From NCBI GenBank assembly GCA_026770705.1, contig JANJGN010000031.1:1178001-1242000 (forward strand): a stretch of 64,000 bases of DNA, given 5' to 3'. This document shows, in pieces, positions 5,977-60,389 of this stretch. Under the pieces are notes generated by a model. The model was not told the origin of the DNA. It did not search any database and worked only from the letters and a program-made list of their open reading frames with translations. This DNA comes from Isurus oxyrinchus (lineage: Eukaryota). The position numbers and the translations under genes were made by a program. Position 1 is the stretch's first letter; every line of letters begins with the position of its first letter.

Positions 5977-6605
5977 GTAAGACAATCCTGTTCCTCCCAT
6001 TGACCAAATTGTACGCCAATATGCGGTTAAAAATCGCCAGGGCTTATGCTTGGATATGAGAGATATAAAGCTAGGGGCTGCTTACATAGGCTGAACTTTC
6101 ATTCCTTTCAATACACAACATTGATGTTTGATATAATCGAGGCATTTAAATAAATTAAAGCAGTTGGTTGCATGGGCTGAGGGGGATTGCTTCTCTGGCC
6201 GGGGAGGGGGGTGGGTGGGGGAGCCCAGAACAGTTTAAATTAGAGCCAGGCCATTCAAGTGTGATGTCGGAGAGTTCTTCATACAGCATCCAGTGACAAT
6301 CAAAAAATCACTTCCTAAAAAGCTGTTGAGAATACTGAGGGTTTGAAAACTTGCAAATCCTTATAGATAGATTGTAGGTAAGCAGAAGTACTGAGAGTTA
6401 CTGAAACGAGACTGGATGAAGGGTTAAGATACATATCGGCCATTATCTATTTGAATGAGGAACAGGTTTGAAGGGCTGAAAAGCCTACTAATGTACCCCT
6501 GTTCCTACGTCCCTTAATGGTCATTAATTTAATAGAAGATCCGATAAAATAGACCTAACATTCCTGGCTTGAGGTGGATTTTTGCTATAGCCCTGTACCA
6601 TTGTG

Positions 6606-6655
6606 TTCTGCTAGTGAAGCTTACTTCGGAAGTGGGACAAAACTGGTCGTGTTCG
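6606..6655 (+). CDS. TRBJ: J-beta segment SASEAYFGSGTKLVVF
   Basis: RSS gatttttgc(6577-6585)-13-cattgtg(6599-6605); donor gtaagt at 6656. Confidence 0.93.
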
Positions 6656-8016
6656 GTAAGTGAATACATTTCTAATACTGAAGAAAGTTGTTGCAATTCA
6701 TGAATTCATGCGGGGTGGGAGAGGGGGTGAAACTACAGGTAATATCGGTGAATTAATTTCAACACTTCAGCTTACTAAGGCAGAATCGCGACCATTGCAT
6801 TCACCTCACTGTTGGAAATTAGTCTGAGAAAGAACAGAAGGTAGGATCTCCCAAATATGCAGAACAAACAACAATATAGATGCAAACAGAATGGTTTGGT
6901 CAATGAAGACAGAACAGTAAACAGAGGCCACATCTATCAAACTAAAAATGTCAGAATGAACTGTTATTTGCGCACTTTTAGCCTACATATTATAAAGTAA
7001 GTAGCAGAGGCATTAGATACAGTTGAAATATTAACAAGGATGATTGTAGAGCTGAGGGGTTATAACTATCAGGAGAAATTGAACGGGCTGGAGCTCAGGG
7101 GTGACCTGATAAAAATTAGAATGATGGAAGAGGTATCGATGGGACAGATGTAGAGAAGAGCTTTCCACTTGTGGGGAGACCAGAAGTAAGGGATGGGGGC
7201 ATCAATGTAAGATAGCCCCTAATATATCCAATTGGGAATTCCGGAGAAACGTTTTACCCCAGAGAGTGGTGTTAACTCGCTACTACAGAGTTGAGGCGAA
7301 TAGCGTAGATGCATTTAAAGGGGAAACTGTATAAAGGCATGGGCGAGAAAGGCATCGAACGTTATGGAAACTCATATTCCCCACTGACCTGTAACAGTAA
7401 TGAAATAATACCATTTAGAGGCCATGTATTTTAAAGTTACCAATCGAAATCGATAGTGTTCTTGAGCTATGGTATCTGTGCACCCTGAGGCGTTCAAGGG
7501 TTGAATTAACTTTCCTCTTTACACAAAATGATACAGCGGTTAAAAGAGTCACATTTTGACAACAGGCTCCTTCAATGAGATTTGTAATATATTAAGTATC
7601 GGTGATTAAGGGATGGTAAAATTGTTGTGTTTAAGTTGATTGTCAATAGGGGTAGATAGCAATCAGCTATTTGCTCTGGTGTGGTGGGTGCTGAACAAGG
7701 GGGTAAAATCCTAAAAGTAGAGACAGACCGTTCGGGAGTGATGTCAGGAAGCATTTTTTTTCACAAAAGGTCGAGTGGAATTCTGTACTTGGCTCCACCA
7801 GAAAGTTGTTATGACTAGAGGAATTGGGGAGGGTGTTCTCAATTGAAAATTTAAAATGTCTGATTCATTGATTTTTGTTATGCAAGATCATTAAAGATTA
7901 TTGATCAACATGTTCCTAGATCCTATGTGCCTCTGTTGCCCGTTGTTACACATAATCCCCTAGGGACACGAATCGCAAATAGCTGAGGTGTCTTATAACA
8001 GGAATTAACATTTGTG

Positions 8017-8066
8017 CTCTGCTAACATCTATTATTTTGGAGCTGGGACTAAAGTGACTGTTTCTG
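8017..8066 (+). CDS. TRBJ: J-beta segment SANIYYFGAGTKVTVS
   Basis: heptamer atttgtg 8010-8016, weak nonamer tgtcttata at 12-bp spacing; donor gtaaat at 8067. Confidence 0.88.
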
Positions 8067-8104
8067 GTAAATTAAATTTACATAAGTGTAAATTGATATA
8101 TATG

Positions 8105-8245
8105 AATGAATCGTTTTATCAAATATCTACCTGTCTGTCTGCATGCCTGTCTATCTACCTACCTAGCTACCTGTCTGCCCATCTGTCTGTCTGTCTATCT
8201 ATCTATCTGTCTGTCTATCTATCTATCTACTTGCCTACTTGTCTG
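8105..8245 (+). repeat. (TCTA/TCTG)n tetranucleotide microsatellite
   Basis: visible tctatcta/tctgtctg runs. Confidence 0.85.
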
Positions 8246-8294
8246 AACATCTGTACATCACCGCTGTGTTTTGGTACTGTTGCTTAGTATAGTG

Positions 8295-8348
8295 CAAACG
8301 GGTACAACCCTCTGAATTTTGGGGAAGGGTCTAAGTTAACGATTTTAG
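8295..8348 (+). CDS. TRBJ: J-beta segment NGYNPLNFGEGSKLTIL
   Basis: RSS tgttttggt(8267-8275)-12-tatagtg(8288-8294); donor gttagt at 8349. Confidence 0.9.
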
Positions 8349-8663
8349 GTTAGTATGATTCCTTTTTTCCCAATGAAGCAAGAATCGCGTGTTTGAATCA
8401 GAGCTGAATGCCTAATTGAGGAATATAGAGGAAATCTCGTACTAGTCAGGAGTATACCTTAAAACACTGACATACAGGGGCAGATATAGATAGACAGGAG
8501 GTATTGAGAATGCATTTCATTTTAATTGGAATGCATTTAATTCCAAGTCATTTCATGAGTTTGCATTAGCTTGTGGTAATCTCATGTGAACTAAATGTGT
8601 GGGGCAGTGCGTTTTGCCAGGAGGCTGGTGAGGATCGTTTTTGTGAAGTGACATGATGGCGTG

Positions 8664-8720
8664 TGAATAATAGTAATCAACCCTTGCACTTTGGAGATGG
8701 CACTAAGTTAACTGTTGTAG
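8664..8720 (+). CDS. TRBJ: J-beta segment NNSNQPLHFGDGTKLTVV
   Basis: RSS cgtttttgt(8636-8644)-12-tggcgtg(8657-8663); donor gtaagt at 8721. Confidence 0.93.
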
Positions 8721-9589
8721 GTAAGTGAGTTGTTGATCAAGATGTATCAATTTTTTTTCTCAATGTGCATTGAAACACTCGACTAATTTATTCTAATCAA
8801 TTTAAAGCTAAGAGAGACAGTATGAAATTTGGAAAAAGACTAAACATTGTATTAAAGAAGTAGTAATTACAGTAACTACCTGGACATAACGAAAAAGATA
8901 GGCAGGGTTGAAGGGAGAGTGAGAGAGGAATTGGCAATCATATACATAGAACGAATGTAAGGACATAATGAATAAGAGCAGGAGAAAGCCATTCGGGCCT
9001 TCCAGCCTGCTCTGCCAGTCAGAAAGAATATGTCTGACCAGACCTTGACTCAATTCCACCTTACGCCGTGTTCCCCATAATCCTTGACTCTCCTATAGTT
9101 CAAAATCTGTGTAACTCGGCCTTGAATGTATGCAATGGCGCTGCTTCCCAAGCTCTCTGAGTTAGAGAACTACAAAGATTTGTGACTCTGCAAGAAAATA
9201 AGTTCCTCCTCATGTTCGTTTCAAATGGGTAACTGCTCATTCTGAAATTAATCCCCCAGAGTTTTAGATTCCGCACGAGGAGAAACATCCTCTCCCCTGT
9301 CATGCCCTATTCCAAACCGTCTATGGTTTATTAAAATCTCCTCTCATCTTTCCAAACTCCAGATCCAGAGGGAATTTAGACAGCACTGTGGGAGGTTCGG
9401 AAATTAGAGAGATAAAACTTGGAGGGGAGGGGTGGTGGTCAAAGACGACGAGAAAAGGTATAGCAAAGAAGAAGATAAAGTACAGTAGGGCGGGATACAA
9501 CGCACTACAAAATGATCAAACCTTATTCATTAGCGAACATGTACAGAGTTGAAGAGGCACTAGTTTTCTTATAACCGTTTAAATTAGTG

Positions 9590-9641
9590 TCAGGAAGCTA
9601 TGATTATACATTTGGTATTGGTTCAAAACTCATGGTTTTGG
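9590..9641 (+). CDS. TRBJ: J-beta segment SGSYDYTFGIGSKLMVL
   Basis: RSS agttttctt(9562-9570)-12-attagtg(9583-9589); donor gtgagt at 9642. Confidence 0.9.
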
Positions 9642-11844
9642 GTGAGTTATATTGAGTTGACTTGGCACTTCTGATTAAAGTGGTATCAGAGAGAAAAATT
9701 TCAAGAGGACTTATAAAATAGGATGATTGCGGGAAAATATCACATAAAATGGGATTCTAATTATTGGAATTTAGATGGTTAAGGGGCGATTTCGAGATAT
9801 TTAGGGTAAATGATAGGGCAGATAGAGAGAAACTATTTCCATAGATTGGGTATTCGAGAACTCGGGGGTCCGATCGGGAGTGAAATTGGCAAACACTGCC
9901 ACACGCAAAGGCTATGAAAACTAGAGAAGCTGGAACTGTTCTCCTTAGAACAGAATAGGAAAATGGATGTTTTGACTAAGGTCTGGGGAATAACGAAAAC
10001 TCTGGGTGCAGAAAACAATAAGAACAACTTCCATTGGCAGGAGGATCTGTAACCAAAGGAGTCATGTTTTAGGTCACTGGAAATATATCGCGGTTCCTTT
10101 ACCGTCGGCAGTTAAAAATCCTGGAGCTCCTCCCCTAACAGAATTGTCGGTGCATCTAAACCAGATGGAATGCAACGGTTCAAGAAGGCAGCTCACCACC
10201 AACAAGGGCAACTAGGGATGGGCAGCAATTGTTGGCCTAGCCAGCGAAGCCCACAACTTCTGAAAGAATGGAAAAAGAGGGAATTGGCTAAATGCTTGAA
10301 GGGAAAGGTCAGTTTCCTGCGGTTATATATTTAAGAGCAATGGGAAATTGAAAATTAGGAGATCCTTTTGAACTCAGAGTTGCAAGAATTTTGGGGAGCT
10401 TTATCTGAACTTGAAAACGGAGTTTATGAATAGGTTCGAGTGCGATTTGTACGAACTTAGAAACATAGGAACACCAGAGGTGGATTAAACCCCTCCAGCC
10501 TGTTCCGCCATTCAGTAGGATCATGGATGATTTCTGCCCTAAGACCCAATGCCAACCTTTGCTCCACAATCCTGAATAACTTCTGTTGACAAAAACAATA
10601 TCAACCTCAGACTGAAGGTTGCCGACTAATAGTGGATGAATTGTCTTTTGCGGAAGGGAGATCCGAACTTATTCCATCCTTTGCTTGTACAAGTATTTCC
10701 AATTTCACTCCTGAAATGTCCGTCTCTCTTTGTTAGATAGTGCCTCCGAGTAACAGGGTACCCAATTTGGCAAATAGTTTCTCCCCATCTACCCCATCAG
10801 TTCCTCTCAGTATCTTGAAAGAAACCTCTCAACCTTCTAAGTTCCAATGAATAAAACCTTACTTCCTTCAAACTTTCCTGGTAATACATCCATTGAATCC
10901 CAGATGTGATCTGGTAAATCAGCTGCACTCCTTCGAAGGCCAATAAACAATGATGACTGAGAGGCAGAGTGAACTGAAGTGAAATCAGGTACAGAAACAG
11001 ACATAAAGCGAAGGAAAAAACTAATGTGCTGAGGGAGAGAGAGGGAGCGAAGGAGAGAGAGAGAGAGAGAGACAGAGAGGGGGAAAGAGGGAGAGAGGGA
11101 AAGAGAGTGAAACGAAAATCAATGAAAAAAATAAACATTTAAAAAGTCATCTTATTAACACCACTAAGAACAATTTACCACCTGCAGTAATGGAACATAA
11201 TACGTAATAATTGTTAAATTGCTGGGCCAGCAGGATTGATTTTCACTGTGTTAAGAATTGTCAGGTCGTTAAAACGGTAAACAGTTTGTTCATTATAGAC
11301 TTACCTTTATGTTCGGTGTGTCATCAGTGTTGTTTTAAACTGTTGAATAGTCTAATGCAATGGCCTAATACTCTCCAATATTCCAATCATCAATGAGAAT
11401 ATCATAAATCGATATGTACTTTGGAAAGTATACAGATAATAGCACTTCAAGCCTAATAAGCGGGAAAATGCATTGGGATGTCTAATGTAGGATATAAGAA
11501 TGGGAAGTCCTTCTTGACTTTGGCTGAATTCCTAACCAGTGGAAAGATTCATACGAAGAGGACATTTTTAAATTAATGTTAGGCCATTTAGAAGCGAAAT
11601 CAGGAAACACTTTTTCACAGAAATGTAGGGAGAAATCACTCCATCCCACCCTACCGCCCCGCAAAAAGACAGTGGGTGCTCAGGGTCAAGTGTAATTTCA
11701 AGTTTGAGACGGATAGATTTATGATGGGCGAGAGTATCAAGGAATATGAAGAATAGTAGCGAAGGCTAGAGCGCCTGAATAACCTCTTGATTGGTTCAAT
11801 AGGCTGATTGAGTTAAAGGTTTTGTAAAGGTGTGCAGCATAGGG

Positions 11845-11900
11845 TTGCACAAACGCAAAGAAATTATATTTTGCTCAAGGGACCAAAGTTAGAGCTTTGG
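11845..11900 (+). pseudogene. TRBJ: J-beta ORF/pseudogene CTNAKKLYFAQGTKVRAL
   Basis: nonamer aggttttgt 11817-11825 with 12-bp spacer, but heptamer cataggg has lost the essential GTG; FAQG instead of FGxG; donor gtgggt at 11901. Confidence 0.8.
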
Positions 11901-13033
11901 GTGGGTAAATGTGAAATACGTTGTTGGTTTAAAACACTTGATACACTATTGCTATGTTCTTCAAAACGCCGTTTCTTTCCCATGTCCCACTTAACAATGA
12001 AAATATCATGAATCTCATTACGCCTTGCAAGATTTATAACACATTCATGTGGCATCAGACCAACAAAGAAATGCACTGCGAAGTGTAACAATATATGTTA
12101 TGGTAGACATGTCGTCTTGTTTTGAAATTTGGAGACCTGTATGAGATTTTGCCTCGGGAGAATTATTGGTTAAAGTAGGATCCAGAATAGAGGAGGCTAT
12201 AAGGACTGAACCTAATTGCCTACTCTTAATCCACACTTTATGATCTTCTGACAAAAGCCAGGCGAATATGCTTCAGTTTTTAGCCTTCTTTTGAGCAATC
12301 CCATTCTTGAACAATGTTGTGCAGTTTGATAATATTAAGATCCTGATAATGAGATGTCCTGAAGTGAATATCCATTGTTTGTAATTGCAGAAAATTGCAA
12401 GGCCTAGTTGTTCTTGTTAGAAAATAAATTGACCAATGCGCTGTTAGATTATAGAACCTTACACCCCCCAAAAGGACTTTCGGCCCATCTTATTGTATCC
12501 GGCTCTTTGAAAGAGTTATCAATTTCGTCGAACTCATCCTGTCCTTTCCAAATAGCTGTGTAATTTGCTCCTCGTTGAGTATCATCCAATCCTCTGTTGA
12601 AATTTAGCATTTATCCTGTTTCCAGTACCTTTTCACGTTGAGCATTCCATGTCATAGCAACTGGCTGCTTAAAGAAATAACTCCTCATCAAAACTTCCGC
12701 TCTTTTATCAATCGCCTTCATTTTTTGTTCTCTGCTTACAAAACCTCTGGCTGGTGGAAATATCTTCTCCATAATCTACTCCAACAAAATCCTCCCTGGC
12801 TTTGAACGAGTCCACTAATTGTCCCCTTAACCTTCTCTCGGACAAGAACCTTATCTTCTCCAGTCCCTTTACATAACTGAGCTCCCTCATCCACCATTTT
12901 ATTTAATCTAATTTGCGCACTTTCCAAGGACATGCCATCTTTCCTAAAGTGTGGTGTTTAGAAATTGGTGCGCGACTCCAGCTGGGGCCTAAATTAAGAC
13001 CTAATAGTTTTACCACTGACCTGCAGCATTGTG

Positions 13034-13089
13034 CTAATCTCAGAGCTCGATGTATTCTTTTGGTCCTGGGACTAAGCTGTCAGTTCTAG
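13034..13089 (+). pseudogene. TRBJ: J-beta pseudogene *SQSSMYSFGPGTKLSVL
   Basis: good RSS agttttacc(13006-13014)-12-cattgtg(13027-13033); in-frame TAA 13035-13037; expected donor at 13090 reads AT, and the next GT (13094) is in the wrong phase. Confidence 0.85.
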
Positions 13090-14601
13090 ATAGGTAAACA
13101 ACAATGTATCATAGCATTTAACCTTTAATTTTCTACAAGTGTTCATTCCTTGTTTTGTAATTGGTTGAAAGCTCACAAATGGAAACAAAGGCTGGGTAAC
13201 TTGGAGTAAATTTGAATTGCAAGATGAAGAATGTACAATGACACTGTTATTAAATAAGCTGGTTACAAGAGTTCTCAACATGCACCTTTTCGACTCCAGC
13301 TTTCAACATCTTAAACACCTCTATAAAGTCCTACTCAGCCAAGATAAGTAGAAATATACATGGAACCAGAACTGGGACCAGTTTCTGATGTTCATATATC
13401 TGAGTTAAGTTATATTTGATACATTGTGCACAGTTCTAGAGTCCATATATCTGTGCTGCGAGTCTAGCCAAGTCACTATGTGTGTTTACCATAATTTCCG
13501 TGCTTTCAATTGCCCTACCTTTGGAATTGATTAGGCTAGGGAAGGCCAGATGAATCTAGGCATTGCTGTTAGTCAAATCAAAATTGTACAGGGGAGCCAG
13601 GTAAAAACATATCCTGCAATGATATGGCCCCAGCAATTTTGATATTGCTAGTTAACACGGTACTCTTGATCAAACTTGCCTCTCTACCTCGGCGTTCGCA
13701 AAACACTGTACTTGGGTATTATTTTTATAGTTTCAAGGGATAGGGGTATCGCGGTCAAGGCCAGCATTTGCTGCCTATCCCTCATTTCTGTTGAACTGAG
13801 TGGCTTGATAGGTAGATTCCTTCAATAAAGGATAGTAGTGAACCAGATGGGTTTTTACAACAATCGATGATAGCTTCATGGTCACCATTGCTGAGATTAG
13901 CTTTATACTCCGGGTTTATTAATTGAATTTAAATTCCACCAGCTCTAATGGGGAAGATTTAAATCCATGCCCCCAAAACATTAGCCTGGGCCACTTGATT
14001 ACTAGTTGTGGGACACTCCCAGTAGGTCATCACCTCCGAATTACACATGTAAAACTGAATAATTTCCTCTTCCAATAGTCAGTCACACGGCATTTAGTTT
14101 CATTAATTTGACAAAAGATAGGCAATGTTCAACAAGCACTCATTACTTTAAAAAAAATAAACTCAGCAATGAAGGGCTGCTATCGAGCTGACAATAGAAG
14201 CAAACCCTTGTCAACAATTTTCAAAAAGAGCTGGAATCCCGGCTTGTCTGCTCTGATCAAACATAAGAAGCTACAGAAGACCAGGAGGTGACAATTCACC
14301 CCTTGGCCCTGTTCTGTCATTCAGTTAGATCAGAGCTGATCTGAATTTTAGCTCCATCTAGCCATGTTTGTTTCTGTTACCATCCCTGCTCTTACCCAAC
14401 AAAAGTATTGCATGTAATAACCAAAGATTAGTCAAGGATTTAAAAGAAAAGATATTGGAGAGAAAAAGGCTCTTGTCTCTCTTCATGAAAATAATTACAT
14501 TGAGTAGTCAAAGATTTGTTTTTAAACCTCTGATGAACCAGAATTCAAAGCCTTGATTTCAAGCCAGAGATCAGTAGCAAGAACCAAATAGCTTAACAAT
14601 T

Positions 14602-14873
14602 CAACATCTATATCTCCTTTTGTCTATGACATCCTTTGGCTATTTCTACCAATCGCTGGCCCCTCTATCCAGCTCTACTTGCCCCACCCCCCTTAAACCT
14701 GCTTATATTTCATCTCTCTTCTATTTTTCCTTAGTTCTGTTGAAGAGTCATACGGACTCGAAACGTTAATGTGTTCCTCTCCGCTGATGCTGTCAGACCT
14801 GCTGAGTTTTTCCAGGTATTTTTGTTTTTGTTTTGGATTTCCAGCATCTTCACTTTTTTTGCTTTTATTCTTT
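14602..14873 (+). mobile_element. Penelope-like element 3' terminal fragment with 13-bp target-site duplication
   Basis: tagcttaacaatt at 14589-14601 and 14874-14886; body matches the 3' end of the GIY-YIG element at 48490-49722. Confidence 0.8.
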
Positions 14874-15824
14874 TAGCTTAACAATTTCGCTCTATATGCT
14901 AAATTAATAAAGAGTTTGAGTTACTTTCTAGGAATATGGAAATCACTGGCATTCATTTCCCATCCCCTTTTTGCCCCGAGGAGATGCTACTGGGCATGCT
15001 CTTTGAAACACTGGTAGCTGGTTTAGACACAAGTGAAGGGCTTCTTCAGAGAATAGTTAAGAGTCAAGCATGTTGTTTTGAACTGGACTCACAAATAAGT
15101 GCGGACTGAGTAAGGATGTCAGGTTTCCCTGCCTAAACCAGATTAATAAACCAACTGGGTTTTTAATGACAACCCAACAGCTTCTGCACAGAAGGATTTC
15201 ATTCAGCCCATAATATCTCTGTCAGTTTACTGAAAGAGTTTATCCAATTAGTGTTATCGGCAAGATTTCAGCATGATTTAGCAACATTTTCATTTGTCAA
15301 AATAGATGCAATCGGTTTGAAAGTTATTGTCGAACGTACTTCTGCTGATGGCCCTGATGAAACATTTCCGGTCATACCTATTCACTCATAAAAATAAAAT
15401 TCACCCCCTCACCCCTGTATTTTGGTAATGATAGCGCCTCCTGTGGTGATCAACTCATCTGCCTGTAGAAGCAGCTCATACGTTTTTACTCGATGAAAAT
15501 CCTTCACATTCTATTAAAACTCCCCTTAACCTTCTCTGTTCTGAAGAGAACAACGCCAGCTTCTCCAGTCTGCCCACATTGACTGAAGCCCCTAATCCTT
15601 GGTACTATCCTGGTACATTTGCTCTGAACCCTCTCAAATGCCTTCACATCCTTTACCAAGAGTGCAGCCCAGATGTGGAAATAATTCCTAGCTAAGTTAT
15701 TTCCAGTTAGATGATTTAAACACCAGAAACTTCATTCCAGTAGTTACTTCCCCTAGATATAAACATGCATGACGTGAAAGCAATGACTCGATTCATATTT
15801 GTAATGCAGCGGCTGTTAGCTGTG

Positions 15825-15880
15825 TTGCAATAACGCAAATTATTTTTATTGAGATGAAGCTAAGGTTTCAGTGCCAGCGG
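15825..15880 (+). pseudogene. possible highly decayed J relic (NYFY*DEAKVSVP)
   Basis: agctgtg heptamer-like 15818-15824; codons tga gat gaa gct aag gtt tca gtg align to G-D-G-T-K-V-S-V; gtaatt donor-like; no properly spaced nonamer. Confidence 0.35.
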
Positions 15881-16779
15881 GTAATTAGAAAGTCACACCG
15901 GTTATTTGCTGCTTTCTGAAACTTCCATTTCTGGTGCTAAGTGATTAGCCAACTATCGAGTTTTAGGAATGCTTTAATAAGTTACAGCTGTCAATAGGTG
16001 TGGCCAGATAATGATTTTGCACTTTAGGTTTGTACCTTATCAGAGACAGGATATTCTGAGTTTCCAAGGTTTCTGCACTCATCCAATTTCGGCCCATTCG
16101 TCAGTTCCCCGTTCCATTCTCTCTACCATTAGCTGTTTTTTCTTCAGCTGCCTAGGCCCTAAACTCTGAAATTCTCTCCTTGAATCTCTCTCTCTCCCTC
16201 TGCTCTCTCATTTCTGTCATCCATTAAGTAGAGTCTCATAAGCCACATGATTTATCATATTTTGGCCATATGCACCTGATTTGGCTCGACTTCAATTATT
16301 CGCCTGAAGATCCTCTTCTACTGAGCAACTTTGAAGGTTTTTTACAGCAACAGTGGCGCTATATAAATTAAGCGCTCGTTGGGTTTCGGCTGGAATATTA
16401 TATCCAATTCCTGGCCACCAAGCATTAAGAAGGATATCACGGCATTATAGAGGCTGCAGAGGGGGTTCAGAAGATTGGCACCATGGCTGAGAGCCTTCGG
16501 CTATGTGGTGAGGCAGTAGAAGCTACATTTATCTTCCTTACGACAGCGAAGCTGAAGAGGGCATTGATGATGTTGTTCCCTTTATAATGGTATTATAAAG
16601 TTTTATAGGCAATTAATTAAAAAAATCAGACAATATAAACGAAAAATAATTAAGGACGCATTACGGAGTGGCATGAAAGGTGTTCCTAGTGATACAATTG
16701 TTGCTGTTTGGATCAAAATTAAACTGGGGTTCAGGCTTTTTTTAATTTGAAAATGTTTCGACAACAATGCTTCATGGCG

Positions 16780-16830
16780 CTCAAGGTACTTTCTTCTATT
16801 TCGGCTCTGGTACCAAACTAAATCCTTTAA
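16780..16830 (+). pseudogene. TRBJ: J-beta ORF/pseudogene QGTFFYFGSGTKLNPL
   Basis: FGSGTKL motif; heptamer catggcg 16773-16779 (GTG changed to GCG); poor nonamer; donor gtaaag at 16831. Confidence 0.75.
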
Positions 16831-22283: not shown

Positions 22284-22631
22284 ATAAGAATGACAAAATT
22301 AGCAATGCCAAAGTTTCTATCTTTGAACCCTCCCCTGAAGAAATTAAGAAGGGGAAAGCGACTGTGGTTTGCCTTGTAACTGATTTCTACCCCGACAACA
22401 TCGAGATCAACTGGTTCGTCGATGACATGGTGAAGAAGGCCAACGACCCAAGCATTCAGACTGACCTCAATTCCATCTCAACTGAAGGGAACAAATCCTT
22501 TAGCATCAGCAGTCGCCTGAGGCTCGATGCCCAAGATTGGATCTGGGTTAAGACAATTACGTGCACAGTGAAGCATTATATTGGAGCATCAGATGTTCGT
22601 GAATCTAATTACACGCTACACATCAAAGCTG
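22284..22631 (+). CDS. TRBC: TCR beta constant exon 1 (Ig C1 domain)
   Basis: acceptor cacacag; (D)KNDKISNAKVSIFEPSPEEIKKGKATVVCLVTDFYPDNIEINW...FSISSRLRL...ITCTVKHY...LHIKA; FEPS-EI, KAT-VCL, FYPD and SSRLR are C-beta hallmarks; phase-1 donor gtaggt. Confidence 0.97.
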
Positions 22632-22952
22632 GTAGGTCATCAAAATGGCCCATGCCATTCCATTTTAGCTTCAGAGGAAGCAAGATCTTGCACTTATGTA
22701 GTGCCCGTGCCGTTCTCAATGAAAGAGTAACCACGTAGATGAATCTGTAAATCAATAAATGACTAAATAAATCATTCAAAAAACACATGGAACATGTAAA
22801 TGTACTCGGAAACAATGTTAAAAACTATATTAACACGACTGTCATAATGTATCGGGATGAGTGTGACTTACAAATGTGATCATCTGCAAATACACACTAA
22901 TTTCATAAAGCATCTGGTGCTAAATGGTTGCTTTTATTTTCATTTCTTTCAG

Positions 22953-22973
22953 TAACCTGCGGTGTAAGTAAAG
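22953..22973 (+). CDS. TRBC: TCR beta constant exon 2 (hinge, (V)TCGVSK)
   Basis: polypyrimidine tract + cag; 21-bp phase 1-1 exon carrying the interchain Cys; donor gtaagc. Confidence 0.92.
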
Positions 22974-22989
22974 GTAAGCCTCTATATCC

Positions 22990-23520
22990 TTTTATTTGCT
23001 TCTGGGCAACGCGCTTTAGGAAGAGTAGAGAGTCCTGAAGAGGGCGCAAAGAAGACTGACGAAAATGATTCCAGGGATGGGGTTTCAGCTGAAAGGTTAG
23101 TTTGGAAAATCTGAGATTGCTCTCCTTGGAAGAAAGGAGGATTGAGGGAAGATTTGATGGCGGTGTACAAGATAATGATAGATTTGGATAATGTAGACAA
23201 AGGCACGCTGTCCCATTACCTGATGGCATAAGGACAAGGGGACACACATTTATGGTTTTGGGCAAGAGATGCAGCTGTAATGCGAGAAAGAGCATTTCTT
23301 TCATGCACAAAAAGGTAATGAACTGAAATGGCCTTGGATGTGTTGGAAGCGAAGAATGCCAATGATTTCGAAAGGAAATTGGATGGACAATTGAAAGAAA
23401 GAAAGTTGCAGGGCTACAGAAATAGAGCAGGGGAATGGGGTTAACTGAACAGCTCTACAGAGACGGCATAGGCTGGACGAGCCGAATAGCCTTCTTTTAT
23501 GACATAATAAGGCTATGACT
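22990..23520 (+). mobile_element. CR1-type LINE 3' fragment in C intron 2
   Basis: CR1 RT C-terminal and 3' UTR motifs (ttgctctccttggaagaaaggaggattgagggaagatttgat...). Confidence 0.7.
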
Positions 23521-24654
23521 TTAAATAGCCAGAGCGCCTATATTGCAATTCTGGAATTATTATCTTATCCGGTATTGCGTGCTTAGTTATTTCAACATTT
23601 GGAAACACTTGCTTTCCATTAAAAACAAAACTACCTTTGCTGCTGAGTTTATTAGAAAACTCACTTCAGGAGAAAAATGCAGCTGGCCTTTTCAGATAGT
23701 GCTGGACCAATGAATTAGTATTGAGTTCTCCTGGATTCAACTCATAGTAATACACGTTCGCTGTGATGAGGGAAAGGAAAGGCCTGGCGGTGGATGGAGG
23801 GAGTTGAGTGGAAGTGCATCAATCTTAAAACTTAAATTTCCTTCTGTGAGATCAGCTTGAATGCAGTGCAGAAACAAGAAGTGGAGTTCCCCTCTTTGGA
23901 GAAAGGGAGTTTTATGTAGTGCCTTTCAGGGCTGCAATACATTGCAAAACTCTTTGTAGCCAATGAAGTACATTGAAAGTAAACTCGCTACTATAATGTA
24001 GGGATAGCAGAAACTAGTTTGCAAATAGCAACATACCACAAAAAGCAATGAGATACGTGAGCAGATAATCTTTGTTTTGTGACATCGGTTAAGGAATAGG
24101 TTGAGGCCCAGGGCATACTGGAGAACCCAATGGTGCTACCGGATTGTTTCATTTGCCTCAAAGGGCATCAGATCATCTGTTTAAGGCCTTATCTGAAAAA
24201 TGGTTCGTCCAAACGTGCAGTGTTCCCGCTCGACTCACACTGGGACATTTGGTCTGTATTATGGGGCTCTGGATTGGGACTTGAGTGCATGATCTGGCGC
24301 CAAAGGGAGAAATCTCCCCACTGAGTTATGGCTTACACAAGCTGCGAACCCATACAATCCTGAGCTACTAATTCAGATATTGCTTCATCTTCGGTGGGTG
24401 AGGGTGGAAATGTTAGTATGATCCCCACAGGAGATAGCAGTGTTCATAATTGGACATGGCACATCATTGGAGTAGATTTACTGTATTGGGGTAAAACCTA
24501 GAGCAACTTATCACATCAAAGGAGAACATTATCTTTTTACAACTCAACTCATAGGCTGGGATCCTGAAATGTTGATATGTTCCATTTTCTAACAATAGAA
24601 TTCCTCACTTCTAGAGAACAGGAATTCCAAAGTGTACTTATATTTACTTCACAG

Positions 24655-24761
24655 AAGCGAAAATGCAAAGCATGGGAGCAGCAAAATTGACGTACCTGAT
24701 CCTGATCTGCAAAAGCATCTTTTATGGAATATTCATCTCAATACTTGCTTGGAAAACTAAG
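24655..24761 (+). CDS. TRBC: TCR beta constant exon 3 (connecting peptide + transmembrane)
   Basis: (E)AKMQSMGAAKLTYLILICKSIFYGIFISILAWKTK; conserved transmembrane Tyr...Lys...Tyr; 107 bp; acceptor acag, phase-0 donor gtaaga. Confidence 0.96.
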
Positions 24762-25687
24762 GTAAGATTAAACTAACTAAATGTATTAAAATATGCATTC
24801 CAACAGTGAAGGTGGGTTTTTATGGTGCCCAAGCCAAGAAAAAAAAATGATTCTCCTTCATTTGGTGGGTCCCGATACCTTGATTGACTCCCATGCTATA
24901 GATTCTCTGCAGCAAAATTGCACTCCACGTTCATTCTAACTGTATCACATGATCTTACATGACGTTAATGGGAGGCCCATCTATTCATTCATAGAATTAC
25001 AATTAAATCATAGTAGAGAAATTAACCAGTCGGCCCTAATGGTGCCTGCCATTGTTTTAGCAATATAACAGCCCCACTCCACTACATCTAACATTAGCAC
25101 CATGAACTTCTGTTACTGTATATCCACCTTCCAGCATGACAGGCTCTGTGCTATTCGCCTCATAAACGCCAAATGGCGGCAAGTTCCCCATTCTATCTAT
25201 TTCTGGAATTAAAACCTTTTCCCGTTCAATTCATTATTGGATGTGTCAGTGAATATCTTATATTAGACAATCCTAGTGTTGGATTCTTATTCCAAAGTAC
25301 TCGAATGAAAAAAAACATTCCTTTTCACTCCTATTGCCCATCACACTAAGGGAAAAAAACACAGTTGAATATATTTAGCACTATTGATATTTCTGATTTT
25401 CTTTTACAAATGAATGCAGTTTTCTCCTTTTTACAATGCTTCAGCTTTACAATTTAAAAAGCATGACCAGGATTGTATGACACATCTCGACTATTACTGA
25501 TTTTGTCAGGGCAATGATGTCAAGTCACTGAACAGCAAAAATAGAATTATTCCTTGAATGGTATCAGGGATGCAGGACGTCAGCTTTGAAAAGTGAATTG
25601 TGCTCCTTAGAGCAGGGAAGTGTAAGGGAACATTTCACAGAAGTGTTCAAAATCATCAACAGAGTCAGTGGTGTAAGTGAGGAGATA

Positions 25688-26715
25688 AACGCAAAACACT
25701 GTTGATGCTAGAAATCTTAAATAAAGCAGGAAATGTTGGAAAAACTCAGGAAGCACCTCTGAAGAGAGACAGACAGTTAATCTTTCGACTCCAAAATGAC
25801 TTTTCTTTGGAATGGAAGAGAGGTAGATGTGTGATCGTTTTTAAGCTGTTGAAAAGGGGCAGGGTCAGCTGGAGAAAGTGGGAAGGTCAGAAGACTAGAA
25901 TGCGGGGGAGATAAAATAACAGATATGTCATGGAACAAAGGCAAAAATGGTGATAATAGTAAAGTAAAGGAAGAAAACATTGGTCCAGTATAGGTGTTAA
26001 TGGAAAACTAAAGGTCAGAGCTACCTGAAAACAAATGATGAGAAACAAGGTACAGGATTGCATTAGGGGAGAATACACATTGGAGGACAGGATTCACAGT
26101 CTGAAGTTGTTGAAATCAATGTTGATTCCGGAAGTCTGTAAATTGTCTAATCAGAAGATGGGGTGCTGTTCCTCAAGCTTACTTTGGGCTTTACTAGAAC
26201 ATTGCAACAGGCTGACGACAGGAATGTGAGCCTGAGAGCAAAATGCTGAATTTAAACGGCAAGAGATGGGGAGGTCAGGGTCATGCTCGAGAATTGAGCT
26301 AAGGTGTTCCACAAAGTGGTCATCCAGTCGGCAATTTGTCCCCCTAGTGCCGAGAAGAACGCACTCGATTAAAAGAAATTCAAGTAAATCACTGCTTCAC
26401 CTGAAAGGAGTGTTTGGAGCCTTGGACAGTGAGGAGGGAGGAGGTAATAGGCCAGGTGTTTGCATGGAAAGGTGCCTTGAGAAAGGGATGAGGTACTGGC
26501 TGTGATAGAAGAGTGGACCAGAGGGAACAGTCCTTCAGAATGCTTACAGGAAAGAGGAAGGTAAGATATTCTTAGTGGTGGCATGCGTCTGGAGTTGGTG
26601 AAGGTAATACATTGAATCCGGAGGCTGGCCAGATGGAAAGAGAGGTTCTGGGTGGGGTGGGGAAGGGTGAGGGCAGGAGTGCAGAAATAGCTTGGACACG
26701 ATTGACGGCCTTGTG
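25688..26715 (-). mobile_element. decayed Penelope-like retroelement in C intron 3
   Basis: reverse-complement similarity to 48490-49722 (gaattcaacaacttcag, gaggaacagcaccccatcttc, terminal ccagcatc...gttttgc). Confidence 0.7.
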
Positions 26716-27075
26716 TAAGTAATGGGACACTGATTCCAGTAGTAGTTGGATCAGTAAGCAGAGTGCAGTGGTATAAAATAATTGATCAAAGAGCCGAAGA
26801 GGAGCTGAGGGTGTATTTTTATGCAGCGTGTTGCCATGATTTGGAATTCACTGCCAGGAAGGGCAATAGAAACTTATTAAATAGTAACTTTCAATATGAC
26901 GCTGGATGTATAAGTGTTATGAAAGGGATACGGGATATGGACAGCAGAGAACTGGGATTCATTGGAGATCCCTTTAGAAATGCCAGTAGGTCAGCAGAAA
27001 GGCCTCCTTCTGTGCTGCATGATTCTGGTTTTAAAATGATGGCAACGCCGACTGTATTTTTTTATTGTGCACTAG

Positions 27076-27102
27076 ACATCTTACAGCAAAAGGTTTGACT
27101 GA
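27076..27102 (+). CDS. TRBC: TCR beta constant exon 4 coding part (cytoplasmic tail TSYSKRFD*)
   Basis: acceptor tttttttattgtgcactag; phase 0 matches exon 3; TGA 27100-27102; AATAAA at 27301 and 27852. Confidence 0.88.
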   Translation, partial: TSYSKRFD

Positions 27103-47505: not shown

Positions 47506-47596
47506 GTAACACATAAAGAGAGTCAGATCTCATACAATTCTTACCGGTTCCCTTTGAGGTTCTTATTAATTTCGCCTATCTCCAAGCATTAATGTG

Positions 47597-48007
47597 TACA
47601 CTCAGGGTGCAGTAAAACACAACCGAGTTATTGGCACACAACCCAGTGGTCTCCAGGTAAAAGTGGGTGTTGTCAGGTTTTCTCGCGGTGAAACCGTCCA
47701 CCTTATCAGTTGGATTGACCATTCTGCCTTAGGTGGAATGGGAATGGTTCTGAGGGTCATGGCCAGGATGCCATCGGTGCCAGTAGAAATAGTTGGTAGC
47801 AGCTGCTTCTGGGTAGAGGCACTCGATGCTGACTGGAGTGCCCGGGCGTTTGGATATGTAAGCGGGATCTGTTGGATCAGCACAGCTGCCACATCTGTAA
47901 GACAGAGAGGGCGAGTGAGAGGACACAGAAACCCGGGTATAGATTGCACTTCGATATCCAGCATGTAGGAGGATAGAGAAAAGAGCAACCAAGCAAAGAT
48001 GGGCCAT
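47597..48007 (-). pseudogene. TRBV: inverted V-beta pseudogene 1 (TRBV30-like family)
   Basis: leader MAHLCLVALFSILLH 47962-48007 (donor reads CT); V exon 47597-47894 VLIQQIP/AYISKRPGTPVSIECLYPEAAATNYFYWHRWHPG...ST*GR...VDGFTARKPDNTHFYLETTGLCANNSVVFYCTLSV with a frameshift and TAA 47729-47731; 23-RSS cacatta(47596-47590)-23-ataagaacc(47566-47558). Confidence 0.9.
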
Positions 48008-49722: not shown

Positions 49723-49956
49723 TTTCGGACAGTTGCATGGGCACTGAGTGGGATTTACTGCCTCCAGTATCATATGCTCGGAAATCTTAACCTGTTCATT
49801 AGCTCCCACTTTTTGGTGAGGTCATCTCTGGGGCAGAGGTATCAAGCACCGTCCCTCTGCTGGCCAGATTAACGCCCAGAGGCTGGCTCGGTCCTGGGCA
49901 CCGTTCTCTACTGCACTGGGTTTTAGGTGCTCTGATCTCTTCCTTGTGTCACTGTG

Positions 49957-50390
49957 GAACTGCCAGGCGCAGTAATACACCCCTGTGTGACTCCCTCGCA
50001 GACTGGACGCTTGCTGGTGGAAAGTAGAGTCACCACTCCTCGAGGCAGTAATACCATCCACCTCCTCCTTCGGCTCAATTTAGTCAGCGTTGGGCGAGTA
50101 GAGGAGCAGCAAGAACTCGCCATTTGTGAGCTGGTGGTGCCAGGAGAACTCTGAGCTGAGAGAACCATGTGCGGAAGAGTGAATTCGAGGGAGGAGTGTT
50201 GTGATTTGGAGATTACAGGTGGATTTTGCTGGACTATGCCCCCTCCTGCACCTGAGAATAGAAGGAAAACAATTAGATTAAAATTTGAAGGGGGTCAAAT
50301 TCAGAGCCAAACTGCCCAAGGAATTAGCGATGGGGACTCACCGTGCAAAAGAAGGGCAGACAGCAAAAATCGAGTTAATTGCCTTTTGAT
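49957..50390 (-). pseudogene. TRBV: inverted V-beta pseudogene 2 (TRBV30/Trbv31-like, ends YYCAWQF)
   Basis: leader (ATC)KRQLTRFLLSALLLH 50342-50390, start codon lost, donor gtgagt; V exon 49957-50251 GIVQQNPPVISKSQHSSLE/HSSAHGSLSSEFSWHHQLTNGEFLLLLYSPNAD*IEPKEEVDGITASRSGDSTFHQQASSLRGSHTGVYYCAWQF; frameshift, first Cys lost, TAA 50080-50082; RSS cacagtg(49956-49950)-23-ctaaaaccc(49926-49918). Confidence 0.93.
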
Positions 50391-52090: not shown

Positions 52091-52552
52091 TGCCCGCTCA
52101 TGATAGCGAATTTCACATTGTCATCAGTCTCGGCTTCAGTGAAGAGACAAATGTGCTGTGGCCAAATTAGTTGATGAAGTAAAGATATTAGGGAAACCAG
52201 GCTGGGAGGAGGGCACCTTGGCAGCCCCTGCCACTTCCGTGTTCCTGAGAGCTCCAACCCTAACAATATGATAATGCCCCCCGCCCCGTGCATTTTGATT
52301 AACATACACCCACAGCTCCCCACATCCCCCCACCCCCCCACTTCCATCATTCTGATTGCCCTAAGTCTCAGTGACAGACCAGCCTCACCCTCTGTACTAA
52401 GTGTAGTCAATAGTCATCCTGCTCCCTAGCAGTGTGGATAACAAGGCCTGGCGCCCTGAGAGCCATTCGCCTAAAACTGAATGGTTGAAGAAGGCTATCT
52501 TTTAATGATTAGGGGTTTTTTTCATGACGCAGAACTGTTCTCAAGCACTGTG

Positions 52553-53296
52553 CTCCATCTCTAGCTGCACAGTAATAAACTGCTGTGTCTGACCCTTTGA
52601 CGCTATTCAAGCGGAGCTTGGATTTCTTATCCCTCGCAGTTAGGGTGATGGTAAACCCGGCATTAATACCCTTTTTGTAGTTTTCTTGGCTCCCCATCAC
52701 TTTGTACCGGATCAGAGCGAGCCCTTCCCCGGGGCGTTGCCGATATCAGAGCATGGTAGTGCGGGCTGTTTGATTCTGGTAACAGTTCAGTTCAGCAGCT
52801 CGTAGTTCTTTGACGGCGGGTGCATCCGGCCACTGATGCAGCACACCTATCGAGGGACCATCTGCAAATAAATTTCGCACATTATTAAGTAAATGTTAGA
52901 CCAGGCAACCCTAAAGTTATCTTTGAGAAGAAGCTACCCTGTGAAATTAAGAGCAATTTCATTTGTCCCGTAGTGATACAAGCCTTTCCCCTTTTCACCT
53001 ACATATCAAGTCTCATTTTGAAAGTTACTATTGAATTTGCTTCCACTGCCCCTCCAGGCAACGAGTTGCAGGTCAAAACAACTCGCTGCCTGGTGCAAAA
53101 TCCGCCTTATTTCGCTCCCTCGTTCATTTGCCATATGCTTTAATGGCATGTTGTTACGTTCATCTCTTGCTGCGGCTTGTTTGTAAAATGTGCCTTTAAT
53201 AAGAGTCGCACAATTAACCCTACCGAGATGTCAATATGTCCCCTGCTTACATGGTACCAGAAGAAAAATGATGAGGGTGAGACAATCTGAAGGCAT
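52553..53296 (-). pseudogene. TRBV: inverted V-beta pseudogene 3 (single stop at the conserved Trp)
   Basis: leader MPSDCLTLIIFLLVP 53251-53296, donor gtaagc; V exon 52553-52861 VLHQWPDAPAVKELRAAELNCYQNQTARTTML*YRQRPGEGLALI...SDTAVYYCAARDG, TGA 52746-52748; RSS cacagtg(52552-52546)-23-aaaaaaacc(52522-52514). Confidence 0.94.
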
Positions 53297-56975: not shown

Positions 56976-57473
56976 GGGGATCTGTACCCAGCTCCTCCGC
57001 TCCTATTGAGGGAGCAGCTGGAAACACTGGGCCTTCGTTCACAACAAGGCATCTTCGCTGAAAGGCACATAATCTGGTTATATCTTTCATTCTTTCTCTG
57101 TGGGATCTTACTGTGTCCCAAAATTTCAAAAGTCACGAGAGGGTTTTTCTTTGATGGGGAGGTATTTTACCGGTAGATCTATGGAAGAGAATCAAAGTTA
57201 GCGTTTCAGGACAAGGACTATTCTTCCAAACCTTAACTGGAAATGTTAACTCTGTTCCTCTCTCTACAGATGATGCTGAGTATTTCCAGCATTTTTCATT
57301 CATATTTCACATTTCCTGCATCCGGAATATTTTGTATTTTGTTTTATATTATGGGCTGGGGCGTGTCGAGGTTGTGAAAGTGGCTACAGAAATGCAGGCT
57401 CTATCTCTCTTCCATTGCGTTACGAGGTGGTGAGGGTTTTTGAAGGGTCGTTACCCCATACTACACCGCTGTG

Positions 57474-58972
57474 CATCACTTGAGGCACAGAAATACATTG
57501 CCGTGTCTGCAGGTGAGGCGCTCGGGAACTTCAAAGCAGAGTTTCTATCACCGTAACCAGTGATTTCAAACCGGGTTTGTTCCACCACGTAATGGATCGT
57601 ACCTCCGATCCGAATGTACCCGATCAACGTGAAACCCTGACCAGCTGAATGGCGGTACCAGAGCATGGCTTGAGGAGTGGATTCCCGTTCATTGCAGTTA
57701 ATTGTTGCCAGCTCGCCCTCTGCTACCACCAATGTGAGTGGAGTTTGCAGAGGCCGCAATCCTTGCGTTAGATCTAAGAAGAACAATGAAGCGGTTCATC
57801 GAATCTTAATGCAGATTAAGAGCCATTCGGCTATCCGCAATTAAACATCAGTAGTGATGCAAGCACGTGCGGACAGTTTCCACTTTACGCTGGCTTTATT
57901 ATTCATTCAAAAAACAATAAAAACATCAATTTATTTTTGAACCAGTGGAATATTAATCGACGCTTACAACCCCCATTCAGGCGATCATCAAATCCATTGA
58001 CTGAATGTTAGCCGGGTATCAAAGATTAGTAGTTTAGTCTAATCGAATTGTTCATGTCAACACTGATGTTATTTGTAAGAACATAAAATTGTTTCCCGCC
58101 GGCTCTCTATATCCCTTATGCCCTGATAAATCAAACATCTACCCATCGCAGCCTTGAATATACTCAGTAATGCAGGAAATACAACCCTCTGGGTTACAGA
58201 ATTCCAAGTGCTCACAGCCCTTTGAGCGAAGAGATTTCTCCTCACCTCAACCCTAAATGGTCGGCGCCTTATCCCGAGGTGGTTACCCCATGTTATAGAT
58301 TCCCCAGCCAGGAGAATAGAACCTCTCAGTGTATTATCTTTTCAAACCATTTCAGAAGTCTATGAGTTTCAGCAAAATCAACTCTAATTCTTCTAAACAC
58401 TGGAGAGCATATTTCTAAATTATTCAGTATCGGAACACAGGACCTTCCTGTCATTCCAGAGACGAATCCAGTCAACTTTCTCAATGCTGCCTACAATGGT
58501 TCTTTCTAGATGCAAACCAAAATTGGACGCAGTTCTCGTGGTATCGTCTCACCAAGGCCCTGTATAGTCTTAGTTACTTGTGTACACCATTCCCGAACAG
58601 TAAAGGCCGACATTCGATTTGCCTTCCTCATCACTTCTTGTAACGTGGGCGCTAGATTCTGTGTTCCTTGCACAAGTGCACCCAGGTCTCCCGGAATATA
58701 AGCATTTGGAGGTTTCACGCCTCTCGCAAGTGAATAAACTCACATCCCCCATATTATTTTCCCATCTTCTACGTTTTTACCTATTCACTTCACCTGTGTA
58801 TGCCTCTGCAGCTTTTGTCACGCCGCAGCTTACTGAGGAAGGTCTGTATTTTCTCAACAAACTTGGACAGATTTCTCCCGGTCTCTTCGCCCTAGTATGT
58901 AATATAATCGTACGGAGGATACTTATACGGCAGAAGTTGTATAGAGATAAAAGAGATACAACATATTTGCAT
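57474..58972 (-). pseudogene. TRBV: inverted V-beta 4: open V exon but leader splice donor mutated (ORF/pseudogene)
   Basis: V exon 57474-57773 LTQGLRPLQTPLTLVVAEGELATINCNERESTPQAMLWYRHSAGQGFTLIGY...ADTAMYFCASSD with both Cys and the Trp intact; RSS cacagcg(57473-57467)-23-tcaaaaacc(57443-57435); inferred leader MQICCISFISIQLLP 58927-58972 followed by ATAAGT instead of GTAAGT. Confidence 0.88.
58085..58850 (-). mobile_element. decayed CR1-type LINE in the V4 leader intron
   Basis: DLGALVQGTQNL...RKANRMSAF; CR1 3' UTR motifs. Confidence 0.7.
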
Positions 58973-59809
58973 ATTTGGATGGAAAAATGCTAAAATTGAG
59001 GGCTGCAATGAACGTGTCCTCATGCCAAGTGACTCGATTTCTGACTGAAACTGCAGGTCAGTGCAGATATGCACCCAAGACCTACCCCGGAAATGTCGTT
59101 CTTCTAGATGCTGTAGCCACGTTAATGATAAACAGGTGTAACAATGTGCTCCCGTGTGTTTTCCTGGAATTTTAAAGCATGTTGAAATTAGCCTTGGCTT
59201 GGGTGCACACTGCATTGTGAGCCAGCCTATAATCTATATGTAACTTAATAAAAAAGTGCCAGAAAGGTTGCACAGGAGCGTTCGCCATAACCCTTTGAAC
59301 ACAGAGCAGCGTATATCGTTGTAGCTCATTAAGTAGCCGTCTGGCCTCCGGGCGGTCGTACATTAAAGACCGGCCTCAGATACTAGAGTACAAGTATCTA
59401 AGCGGATATTGCAATGTAGAGCTGAGGGCTTGCTGAACTGTCTGTGGGGCAGTATGAAGCGAGTGCAGCGTTTCAGCAGGTTGAGTGCTAAGGCGTCTTA
59501 GGTGTTGACACACAGAATGTTCGGGGAAATATTTTCACCCTTAATTAACAAGATTGAAATGTTGCTATATGTGGGAGTTTATAGCGTAAATTTGAGACGC
59601 TATCTCCGAGATGACAGCAATGCCTGAACTTTAAAATAGCTGATTTATTGGCTATAAGGGGCTTTGGGGGGATGCCAAGGTTATGCAGAGTGGCACAGAA
59701 ACGGCTGATTACGATAGGTCAAAGGGCTGCGCATGTGCAGCCATACCCACAGTGCACATGGTGCCGAGGAGGTGTTGATGTCAGCCTGTGACAAGTTTGT
59801 ACCGCTGTG

Positions 59810-60088
59810 CCAATAGATGGCAGAGTCTGTCAGCTCGGGGTTGTTCAGTTGCAGGGTGAATTTATTGCTTCCAACATCGAGCGGGGCGGCGATTCGCTTC
59901 TCGAAATCGGGCCCAGACATCGTGCCCGCTGCATATCCACTTCATCGCGGCTCCCTCTTTCCGCTACCAAAACATACAGTAGAGAGTCATGCTAGCTCCC
60001 TCCAGACTGCAGCCCAGACTGAAGGGCTGTCCCGGGCGGATGACAGACGCCGATGGAAACTGGACCACAGAGGGTGCAGCTCGAACCC
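59810..60088 (-). pseudogene. inverted V pseudogene 5 with IgH-V-like features, truncated at the RSS
   Basis: PSVVQFPSASVIRPGQPFSLGCSLEGASMTLYCMFW*RKEGAAMKWICSGHDV/GPDFEKRIAAPLDVGSNKFTLQLNNPELTDSAIYW, followed directly by cacagcg(59809-59803)-23-atcaacacc(59779-59771); TAG 59964-59966; frameshift; decayed leader probably about 60995-61049 with donor gtaaga. Confidence 0.88.
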
Positions 60089-60389
60089 CTAGACCAGAGT
60101 TAAAGAAAGAAACACGGCTTAGAAAACAGGATGATCCAGGAAAAAAGGCCATTCCGCCTACCATGACGCTGCTAGCTCTTTAAAAGGACTGTCCAATTAC
60201 TCCCACCCTCTGCCGCTTGCCCTCAGCTCTGCAAATTCCATCTTCACCTTTTAATTATGTACCTATTTAGTTTTTAATCGTATTACAGTTTACATAGATT
60301 CACGCATTTCCCCGTATTTTATCGTCGGTGGAGAATATTTGAGAGGTTAACACTTAAAATAGATCGAATGTCCCACCAATAAGGTAAGA

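What the first reader, a model, noticed from the sequence alone, without database searches (positions are those of the whole stretch)
49918..50390. Shark V segment that looks like a positional and sequence counterpart of mammalian TRBV30/Trbv31
Seen: the repaired translation has LLLYSPNAD(*)I...GITASRSGDSTF...SHTGVYYCAW. From memory, human TRBV30 reads LLFYSVGIGQI...NLSASRPQDRQF...SDSGFYLCAWS, and the CAW ending is characteristic of that gene. The neighbour at 47597-47894 (GFTARKPDNTHFYL...CTLSV) looks like the same family. Inference: the inverted CAW-type V has kept family identity, orientation and C-proximal position since the common ancestor of jawed vertebrates.
Basis: partly seen in the sequence, partly recalled or inferred. 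Interest (0 to 1): 0.72.

Follow-up and report, generated by a model that had tools for sequence, protein, structure and literature searches.

The report
Broken shark gene of TRBV30 lineage
This is a broken shark T-cell receptor gene segment that likely belongs to the ancient lineage mammals keep as one backwards-facing gene, but it is one of about 74 relatives facing both ways in a duplicated locus, so its backwards position likely comes from shark-specific rearrangements rather than from 450 million years of conservation.

Summary
The V segment is real and lies inverted, 3' of a TRBC. It is a pseudogene: start codon lost, 1-base frameshift, Cys23 lost, stop codon, 22-bp RSS spacer. Family call largely holds: it falls in a clade (97/95) of shark CAW-type and bony-vertebrate TRBV30-type V and scores 60 bits on that profile against 36 or less on others. 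AU tests on it alone are inconclusive. The positional claim is not supported. Over 1.06 Mb there are two tail-to-tail D-J-C clusters and 109 V; 74 are of this lineage, 9 of 13 between the two C genes and 65 of 96 elsewhere, so there is no enrichment. All 27 intact ones face their D-J-C directly, and intact members are much closer to TRBV30 (47/96 against 26/92). Its closest paralogues sit in upstream cassettes, and the outer inverted block is an 82% DNA copy of the array's 5' end. The scan noted a similar expansion in another genome. An ancestral inverted cluster is not excluded.

The parts
50342..50384 (-). Leader exon of the finding (V2), start codon decayed to AGG
   Evidence: in register with the ATG-led leader of the paralogue at C31:1119k
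50252..50341 (-). Leader intron, GT-AG, 90 bp
   Evidence: sequence
49957..50251 (-). V exon of the finding: TRBV30-lineage pseudogene of a divergent shark subfamily (K); frameshift near 50184, Cys23 lost, TAA at 50082-50080, ends YYCAWQF
49919..49956 (-). RSS: perfect heptamer, 22-bp spacer, nonamer with 2 mismatches
   Evidence: 23-bp spacer in a relative's second copy
47558..47894 (-). V1, pseudogene of TRBV30-lineage subfamily B with decayed RSS; the V nearest to C
52514..52861 (-). V3, pseudogene of a non-CAW TRBV family (stop at the Trp41 position)
57435..57774 (-). V4, non-CAW TRBV with open V exon and good 23-RSS; the only intact-looking V between the two C genes (leader not checked)
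   Evidence: orthologue in Chiloscyllium
59771..60090 (-). V5, strongly decayed V remnant, family unclear
   Evidence: 12.7 bits
4558..4637 (+). TRBD1 (4586-4598) with 12- and 23-RSS
5030..16821 (+). TRBJ cluster 1: 9 clear J segments and 2 weak ones
22287..27099 (+). TRBC1: Ig exon 22287-22638, transmembrane exon about 24654-24761, last exon about 27076-27099
   Evidence: (58% to horned shark TCR, 50% to nurse shark TCR beta)

Best explanation
The segment is a non-functional T-cell receptor beta V pseudogene that likely belongs to the TRBV30 (CAW) lineage, and it likely came to lie backwards behind TRBC through duplications and inversions within sharks. Shown: five lesions; inverted position; 74 lineage members among 109 V; two tail-to-tail D-J-C clusters; three broken paralogues upstream. 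Inferred: sharks and bony vertebrates inherited the lineage from their common ancestor; sharks expanded it into several subfamilies by birth and death while mammals kept one gene, so the relation is many-to-one. Mechanism, from the 12/23 rule: while intact it would have joined D1-J1 by inversion, since its signal and the 12-RSS of D1 point the same way. A join to the second cluster would leave the coding joint on an excised circle. Today it cannot encode a chain.
For: Tree of 105 rows: starred clade (97/95) of 51 rows holding all shark CAW-type and bony TRBV30-type V, split into shark (94/88) and bony (80/61) halves. With the CAW motif cut off (75 rows) the clade is recovered at 91/43 and the bony half at 96/94. 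Profile scores 60.1 bits (bony TRBV30-type) against 35.6 or less; 52.0 against 32.6 without CAW; 5 of 5 non-CAW controls prefer another profile. By DNA the exon is hit by 4 CAW-type queries (E 1e-10 to 2e-13) and by none of 8 non-CAW queries at E 0.05. An intact relative's best single-V matches in the PDB are TRBV30 chains, 84-89 bits against 57-58 for the next TCR beta chains (MEL5 = TRBV30, PMC5887915). Counts: 9 of 13 V between C1 and C2, 65 of 96 elsewhere; 27 intact, all in direct orientation. C31:1243-1278k mirrors 847-814k at 82% DNA identity, including a decayed last exon of the C1s-like gene whose whole copy flanks the array's 5' end. K paralogues at 933k and 1119k lie 5' of same-strand TRBC remnants. 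A catshark gene model joins a CAW V to J and C on one strand.
Against: For this decayed segment alone the signal is thin: AU tests without the CAW columns do not reject grouping with amniote CASS-type TRBV (p 0.116) or TRA/D-like V (p 0.349); identity to mammalian TRBV30 is 26/92, no better than to some TRAV; no TRBV30 chain is among its best 60 PDB hits nor among the 32 hits of an intact B-type V. Reference rows were fetched with a CAW-type query, which biases sampling. On position: inverted CAW V stand behind both C genes in mirror image (77-79%), so an inverted block predates the locus duplication; the inner block V1-V5 has no flanking DNA homologue that would date its arrival; no other shark locus map could be read.
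Confidence: 0.68

Rival explanations
1. The inverted block behind TRBC1 is the shark remnant of an inverted TRBV30-lineage cluster already 3' of TRBC in the ancestor of jawed vertebrates; direct-orientation copies spread from or alongside it. The segment would be one dead member of that cluster, not a unique counterpart.
For: Inverted 3' TRBV form a weakly supported clade in amniotes, and tuatara has five (PMC11754216, passages); newts have inverted clusters (PMC12698447, passages). The block predates the locus duplication. The order 'I-type V then V4-type V' on one strand recurs in a Chiloscyllium gene model. A related species holds a second K copy with an open frame in the differences listed.
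Against: No excess of the lineage 3' of C; the block mixes four or more families; its members are not one clade; its outer part is an 82% copy of the 5' end; none of 14 Eph ligand-binding matches is on this contig; V3-type V are joined to J-C on one strand in catshark and sevengill gene models.
Confidence: 0.22
2. This very segment is the one-to-one orthologue of TRBV30/Trbv31 and has kept its place since the common ancestor.
For: Inverted and about 23 kb behind TRBC; ends in CAW; an exclusive clade with mammalian TRBV30 is not rejected (p-AU 0.52, held tree 1.7 log units better).
Against: Long branch with three broken paralogues elsewhere; intact A-type V are far closer to TRBV30 (47/96 against 26/92); bony TRBV30-type rows group without sharks; another V lies between it and C.
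Confidence: 0.04
3. The segment belongs to another V family and the CAW ending is convergent or from gene conversion.
For: AU tests do not reject other placements; support falls to 91/43 without the motif.
Against: Profile and DNA similarity outside the motif still favour the CAW lineage; all 26 rows most identical to it are in that clade.
Confidence: 0.06

Closest known systems
Human TRBV30 / mouse Trbv31 / opossum TRBV28 (group F; PMC2275272, passages)
   Same: Same V lineage by tree and profile; CAW ending; inverted and 3' of a TRBC; would rearrange by inversion.
   Different: Mammals have a single gene at the 3' end next to KEL/EPHB6. Here the segment is dead, one of 74 relatives, lies between two convergent C genes, and no Eph gene was found on the contig.
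3'-inverted TRBV clusters of tuatara and newts (PMC11754216, PMC12698447, passages) and chicken TRBV2 (three upstream, one inverted; PMC10972964, passages)
   Same: Several inverted V behind C; chicken shows one family on both sides of C.
   Different: Those inverted genes are reported as used; here all 9 lineage members between the C genes are defective and the only intact inverted V is of another family.
Inverted duplicated TRB loci of salmonids and pike (PMC10464911, passages)
   Same: Two V-D-J-C units in opposite orientation on one chromosome.
   Different: Salmonid units are head-to-head with V in the middle; here they are tail-to-tail with C genes facing each other and small V blocks between them.

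Membership tests
TRBV gene segment | Leader exon, intron, V exon, RSS, in a locus with TRBD, TRBJ and TRBC | tested here: met
Functional TRBV | Start codon, open frame, Cys23-Trp41-Cys104, 23-bp spacer | tested here: not met
   AGG start, frameshift, Cys23 lost, TAA, 22-bp spacer
TRBV30 lineage (group F) | Clade with TRBV30 excluding other TRBV and TRAV in a maximum-likelihood tree | tested here: met
   97/95; 91/43 without the motif
TRBV30 lineage (group F) | Other placements statistically rejected for this segment | tested here: inconclusive
   p-AU 0.116 and 0.349
TRBV30 lineage (group F) | Best profile score, independent of the CAW motif | tested here: met
   52.0 against 32.6 bits or less
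One-to-one positional orthologue of TRBV30/Trbv31 | Single-copy, or confined to the 3' inverted position | tested here: not met
   74 of 109 V; 65 lie outside the inter-C region
One-to-one positional orthologue of TRBV30/Trbv31 | Inverted and 3' of TRBC | tested here: met
   but second V after C1, and C1 is not the last C
One-to-one positional orthologue of TRBV30/Trbv31 | Exclusive sister relation to mammalian TRBV30 | tested here: inconclusive
   Not found in either free tree; not rejected
One-to-one positional orthologue of TRBV30/Trbv31 | EPHB6/KEL beyond the inverted V | tested here: not met
   0 of 14 Eph ligand-binding matches on C31; a second C-J-D unit follows instead. KEL not searched.
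One-to-one positional orthologue of TRBV30/Trbv31 | Same position in other cartilaginous fish | not testable with these tools
   No other shark genome is held; only gene models and short contigs were seen

The most novel reading that the evidence does not exclude
An inverted cluster of TRBV30-lineage V genes already stood 3' of TRBC in the ancestor of all jawed vertebrates; this block is its decaying shark remnant, a relative may still carry an intact K gene there, and sharks built most of one TRB array from this lineage in a tail-to-tail duplicated locus with a further separate D-J-C unit.
Probability: 0.22. Interest if true: 0.55.

Novelty: new member of a known kind. Interest (0 to 1): 0.32.

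Why it matters
It extends the TRBV30 lineage to cartilaginous fish with a tree, a profile test and a 49% identical intact relative, which makes it one of the oldest traceable TRBV families. It also shows why position cannot be read from one window: what mammals hold as a lone inverted gene is the majority family of this shark array. If other cartilaginous fish show the same inverted block, the inversion proposed for tetrapods (PMC11754216) would move back to the jawed-vertebrate ancestor. The locus map itself (two convergent D-J-C units, a third elsewhere) was not found in the papers searched.

Tried and rejected
PDB search with the pseudogene fragment gave only generic V hits. Homologue search with an intact V gave 2 Chiloscyllium proteins only. 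No RNA holder listed for the segment. Four RNA-labelled contig sets laid on the J cluster showed no read or contig bearing on use of inverted V. I considered that the unplaced D-J-C contig C2826 belongs between C1 and the inverted V, which would make them direct: rejected, since its end satellites are absent from the C31 stretch and one continues on C163 behind a TRBV array. No decayed D, J or C was found on the - strand between C1 and V1. The window's one N run lies between C1 and V1; whether it is an assembly gap cannot be told, so contiguity there is assumed. Trypsinogen-type clusters were not found in the locus (best 150 of 640 candidates scored). One search used a wrong frame for the first part of the segment and was redone; the break was moved by two codons. 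One search printed a wrong frame and was redone. Paper searches found no shark TRB locus map and no statement linking shark V to TRBV30; subscription papers are not covered, and PMC3222143 (nurse shark TCR) is not held. I recall older cDNA papers noting fish and shark V beta similar to human V beta 20; recalled only, not checked.

Full report
Observation. The segment is on the - strand as described: leader exon 50384-50342, intron, V exon 50251-49957 ending YYCAWQF, heptamer at 49956. It has five lesions: AGG for the start codon (a paralogue has an ATG-led leader in register), one missing base near 50184, Ser at the Cys23 codon, TAA at 50082-50080 and a 22-bp spacer. A contig from the possible source sample agrees but for one letter. 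In three runs of a related species from three studies, a 97% identical copy shares the frameshift, the lost Cys and the short spacer but not the stop; a second copy, about 89% identical, has the extra base, both Cys, no stop and a 23-bp spacer. That frame check used only the differences listed; 56 were not shown and the start codon was not seen. So the gene died before these species split, and the subfamily may be alive in the relative.

Setting. The window holds D, J segments and a constant gene that is TRBC: 96% to a Carcharodon protein, 58% to the horned shark TCR, 50% to nurse shark TCR beta. The animal is therefore a shark close to Carcharodon; I did not determine the species. Five V lie inverted behind C in the window; the finding is the second. 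I read C31:658,001-1,722,000 and a further 170 kb of flank without V. There are 109 V or V remnants, a second D-J-C on the - strand at 1,330-1,347k facing the first, and two TRBC remnants upstream. The two units are an inverted duplication, 82% identical in non-coding DNA. One RNA-labelled contig joins an upstream non-CAW V to a J of the window's cluster, so this cluster is likely in use.

Family. An intact CAW-type V from the locus has TRBV30 chains as its best single-V matches in the PDB (84-89 bits; next TCR beta chains 57-58); MEL5 is TRBV30 (PMC5887915, passages). A search of 1.8 billion representatives gave relatives named TRBV30 in donkey, lizard, crocodile and reedfish, and unnamed ones in turtle, newt, caecilian, sturgeon, gar, teleosts, sharks and rays. 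Database names are automatic and the genomic positions of those genes were not checked; unnamed rows were grouped by motif, which is my inference. For the tree I took 67 of 353 V domains from that search, 8 from named shark chains and 30 of 109 locus V (11 degenerate or redundant rows dropped from 116). The finding falls in a starred clade (97/95) of all CAW-type rows, inside the shark half (94/88), next to its paralogue. With everything after the second Cys removed and 75 rows, the clade persists at 91/43 and the bony rows group without sharks at 96/94. Profiles agree: 60 bits against 36 or less, 52 against 33 without the motif. Against this, AU tests reject no alternative for this one decayed sequence (p 0.116 with CASS-type TRBV, 0.349 with TRA/D-like, 0.52 for an exclusive clade with mammalian TRBV30), and its identity to TRBV30 is only 26/92 against 47/96 for intact A-type V. 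The lineage is well supported; membership of this segment is likely; its place inside the lineage is unresolved.

Position. The lineage makes up 74 of 109 V: 9 of 13 between the two C genes and 65 of 96 elsewhere (family by best seed match, 'intact' = open V exon with both Cys and a near-consensus RSS, leader not checked). All 27 intact members are upstream of a D-J-C in direct orientation; all 9 between the C genes are defective; the only intact inverted V there (57.5k) is of another family. The inverted members do not form a clade but pair with different paralogues. The outer part of the block, 1,243-1,278k, is an 82% DNA mirror of the array's 5' end and carries a decayed last exon of a C1s-like gene whose whole copy lies at 734-816k; non-coding identity of that level cannot date from the jawed-vertebrate ancestor (inference). 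The finding's three paralogues are all broken and lie in upstream - strand cassettes, two of them 5' of same-strand TRBC remnants. In gene models of other sharks, a CAW V and V3-type V are joined to J-C on one strand. No Eph gene was found on the contig. In favour of age: inverted CAW V stand behind both C genes in mirror image, and the inner block has no flanking homologue to date it.

How it works. By the 12/23 rule (established knowledge) an intact V here would join D1-J1 by inversion; a join to the second cluster would be lost on a circle. As it stands it encodes nothing. It is a product of birth-and-death evolution in a locus reshaped by segmental duplication and inversion (inferred).

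Known work. Mammalian and opossum single inverted TRBV: PMC2275272 (passages). Amniote inverted TRBV as a weakly supported clade, five in tuatara: PMC11754216 (passages; supplement search shows nurse shark cDNA V in its trees; figures not seen, so their placement is unknown to me). Newt and axolotl clusters: PMC12698447, PMC12529555 (passages). Duck and chicken: PMC5278385, PMC10972964 (passages). Salmonid inverted duplicates: PMC10464911 (passages). PMC6795676 (passages) says only that shark TCR loci are translocons. Nine searches found no shark TRB map or shark-TRBV30 link in the held library.

Verdict. A new, dead member of a known ancient lineage. Family identity: likely. Conserved orientation and position: not shown, and less likely than shark-lineage rearrangement. 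Interest 0.32.

Noticed in passing
G000:C31:1,182,000-1,348,000 (window 4,500-27,100 and beyond): Two complete TRB D-J-C clusters face each other tail-to-tail, 82% identical in non-coding DNA, each with its own upstream V array.
   Followed up: yes
G000:C2826:19,000-35,500 and C163:200,000-1,003,000: A third TRB D-J-C (C 54% identical to the window's), spliced J-to-C in an RNA-labelled contig; a shared 36-bp satellite suggests it follows a TRBV array on C163 made of horned- and nurse-shark-type families, with no CAW-type V seen (100 kb of C163 sampled).
   Followed up: partly
G000:C31:734,000-816,200; decayed copy near 1,276,000: [quoted passage not shown]
   Followed up: partly
G000:C31:1,447,000-1,601,500: Recent tandem amplification of a roughly 22-kb unit of CAW-lineage V; five open-frame copies end in CPRSL instead of CAWSL.
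   Followed up: no
G000:C31:912,000-934,000, 1,004,000-1,026,000, 1,099,000-1,120,000: Three decayed reverse-oriented cassettes inside the upstream array, two ending in TRBC remnants of a further type.
   Followed up: partly
window 57,435-57,774 (-): Single-copy, intact-looking inverted V of a non-CAW family with a Chiloscyllium orthologue; the best candidate here for inversional joining.
   Followed up: partly
window 4,142-4,190 (+): A J-segment copy without a clear RSS lies upstream of D1; a Carcharodon gene model contains the same piece.
   Followed up: no
runs X5, X7, X8 laid on window 49,740-50,600: A related species has two copies of this subfamily, one apparently intact; the second copy was not found in this genome.
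   Followed up: partly
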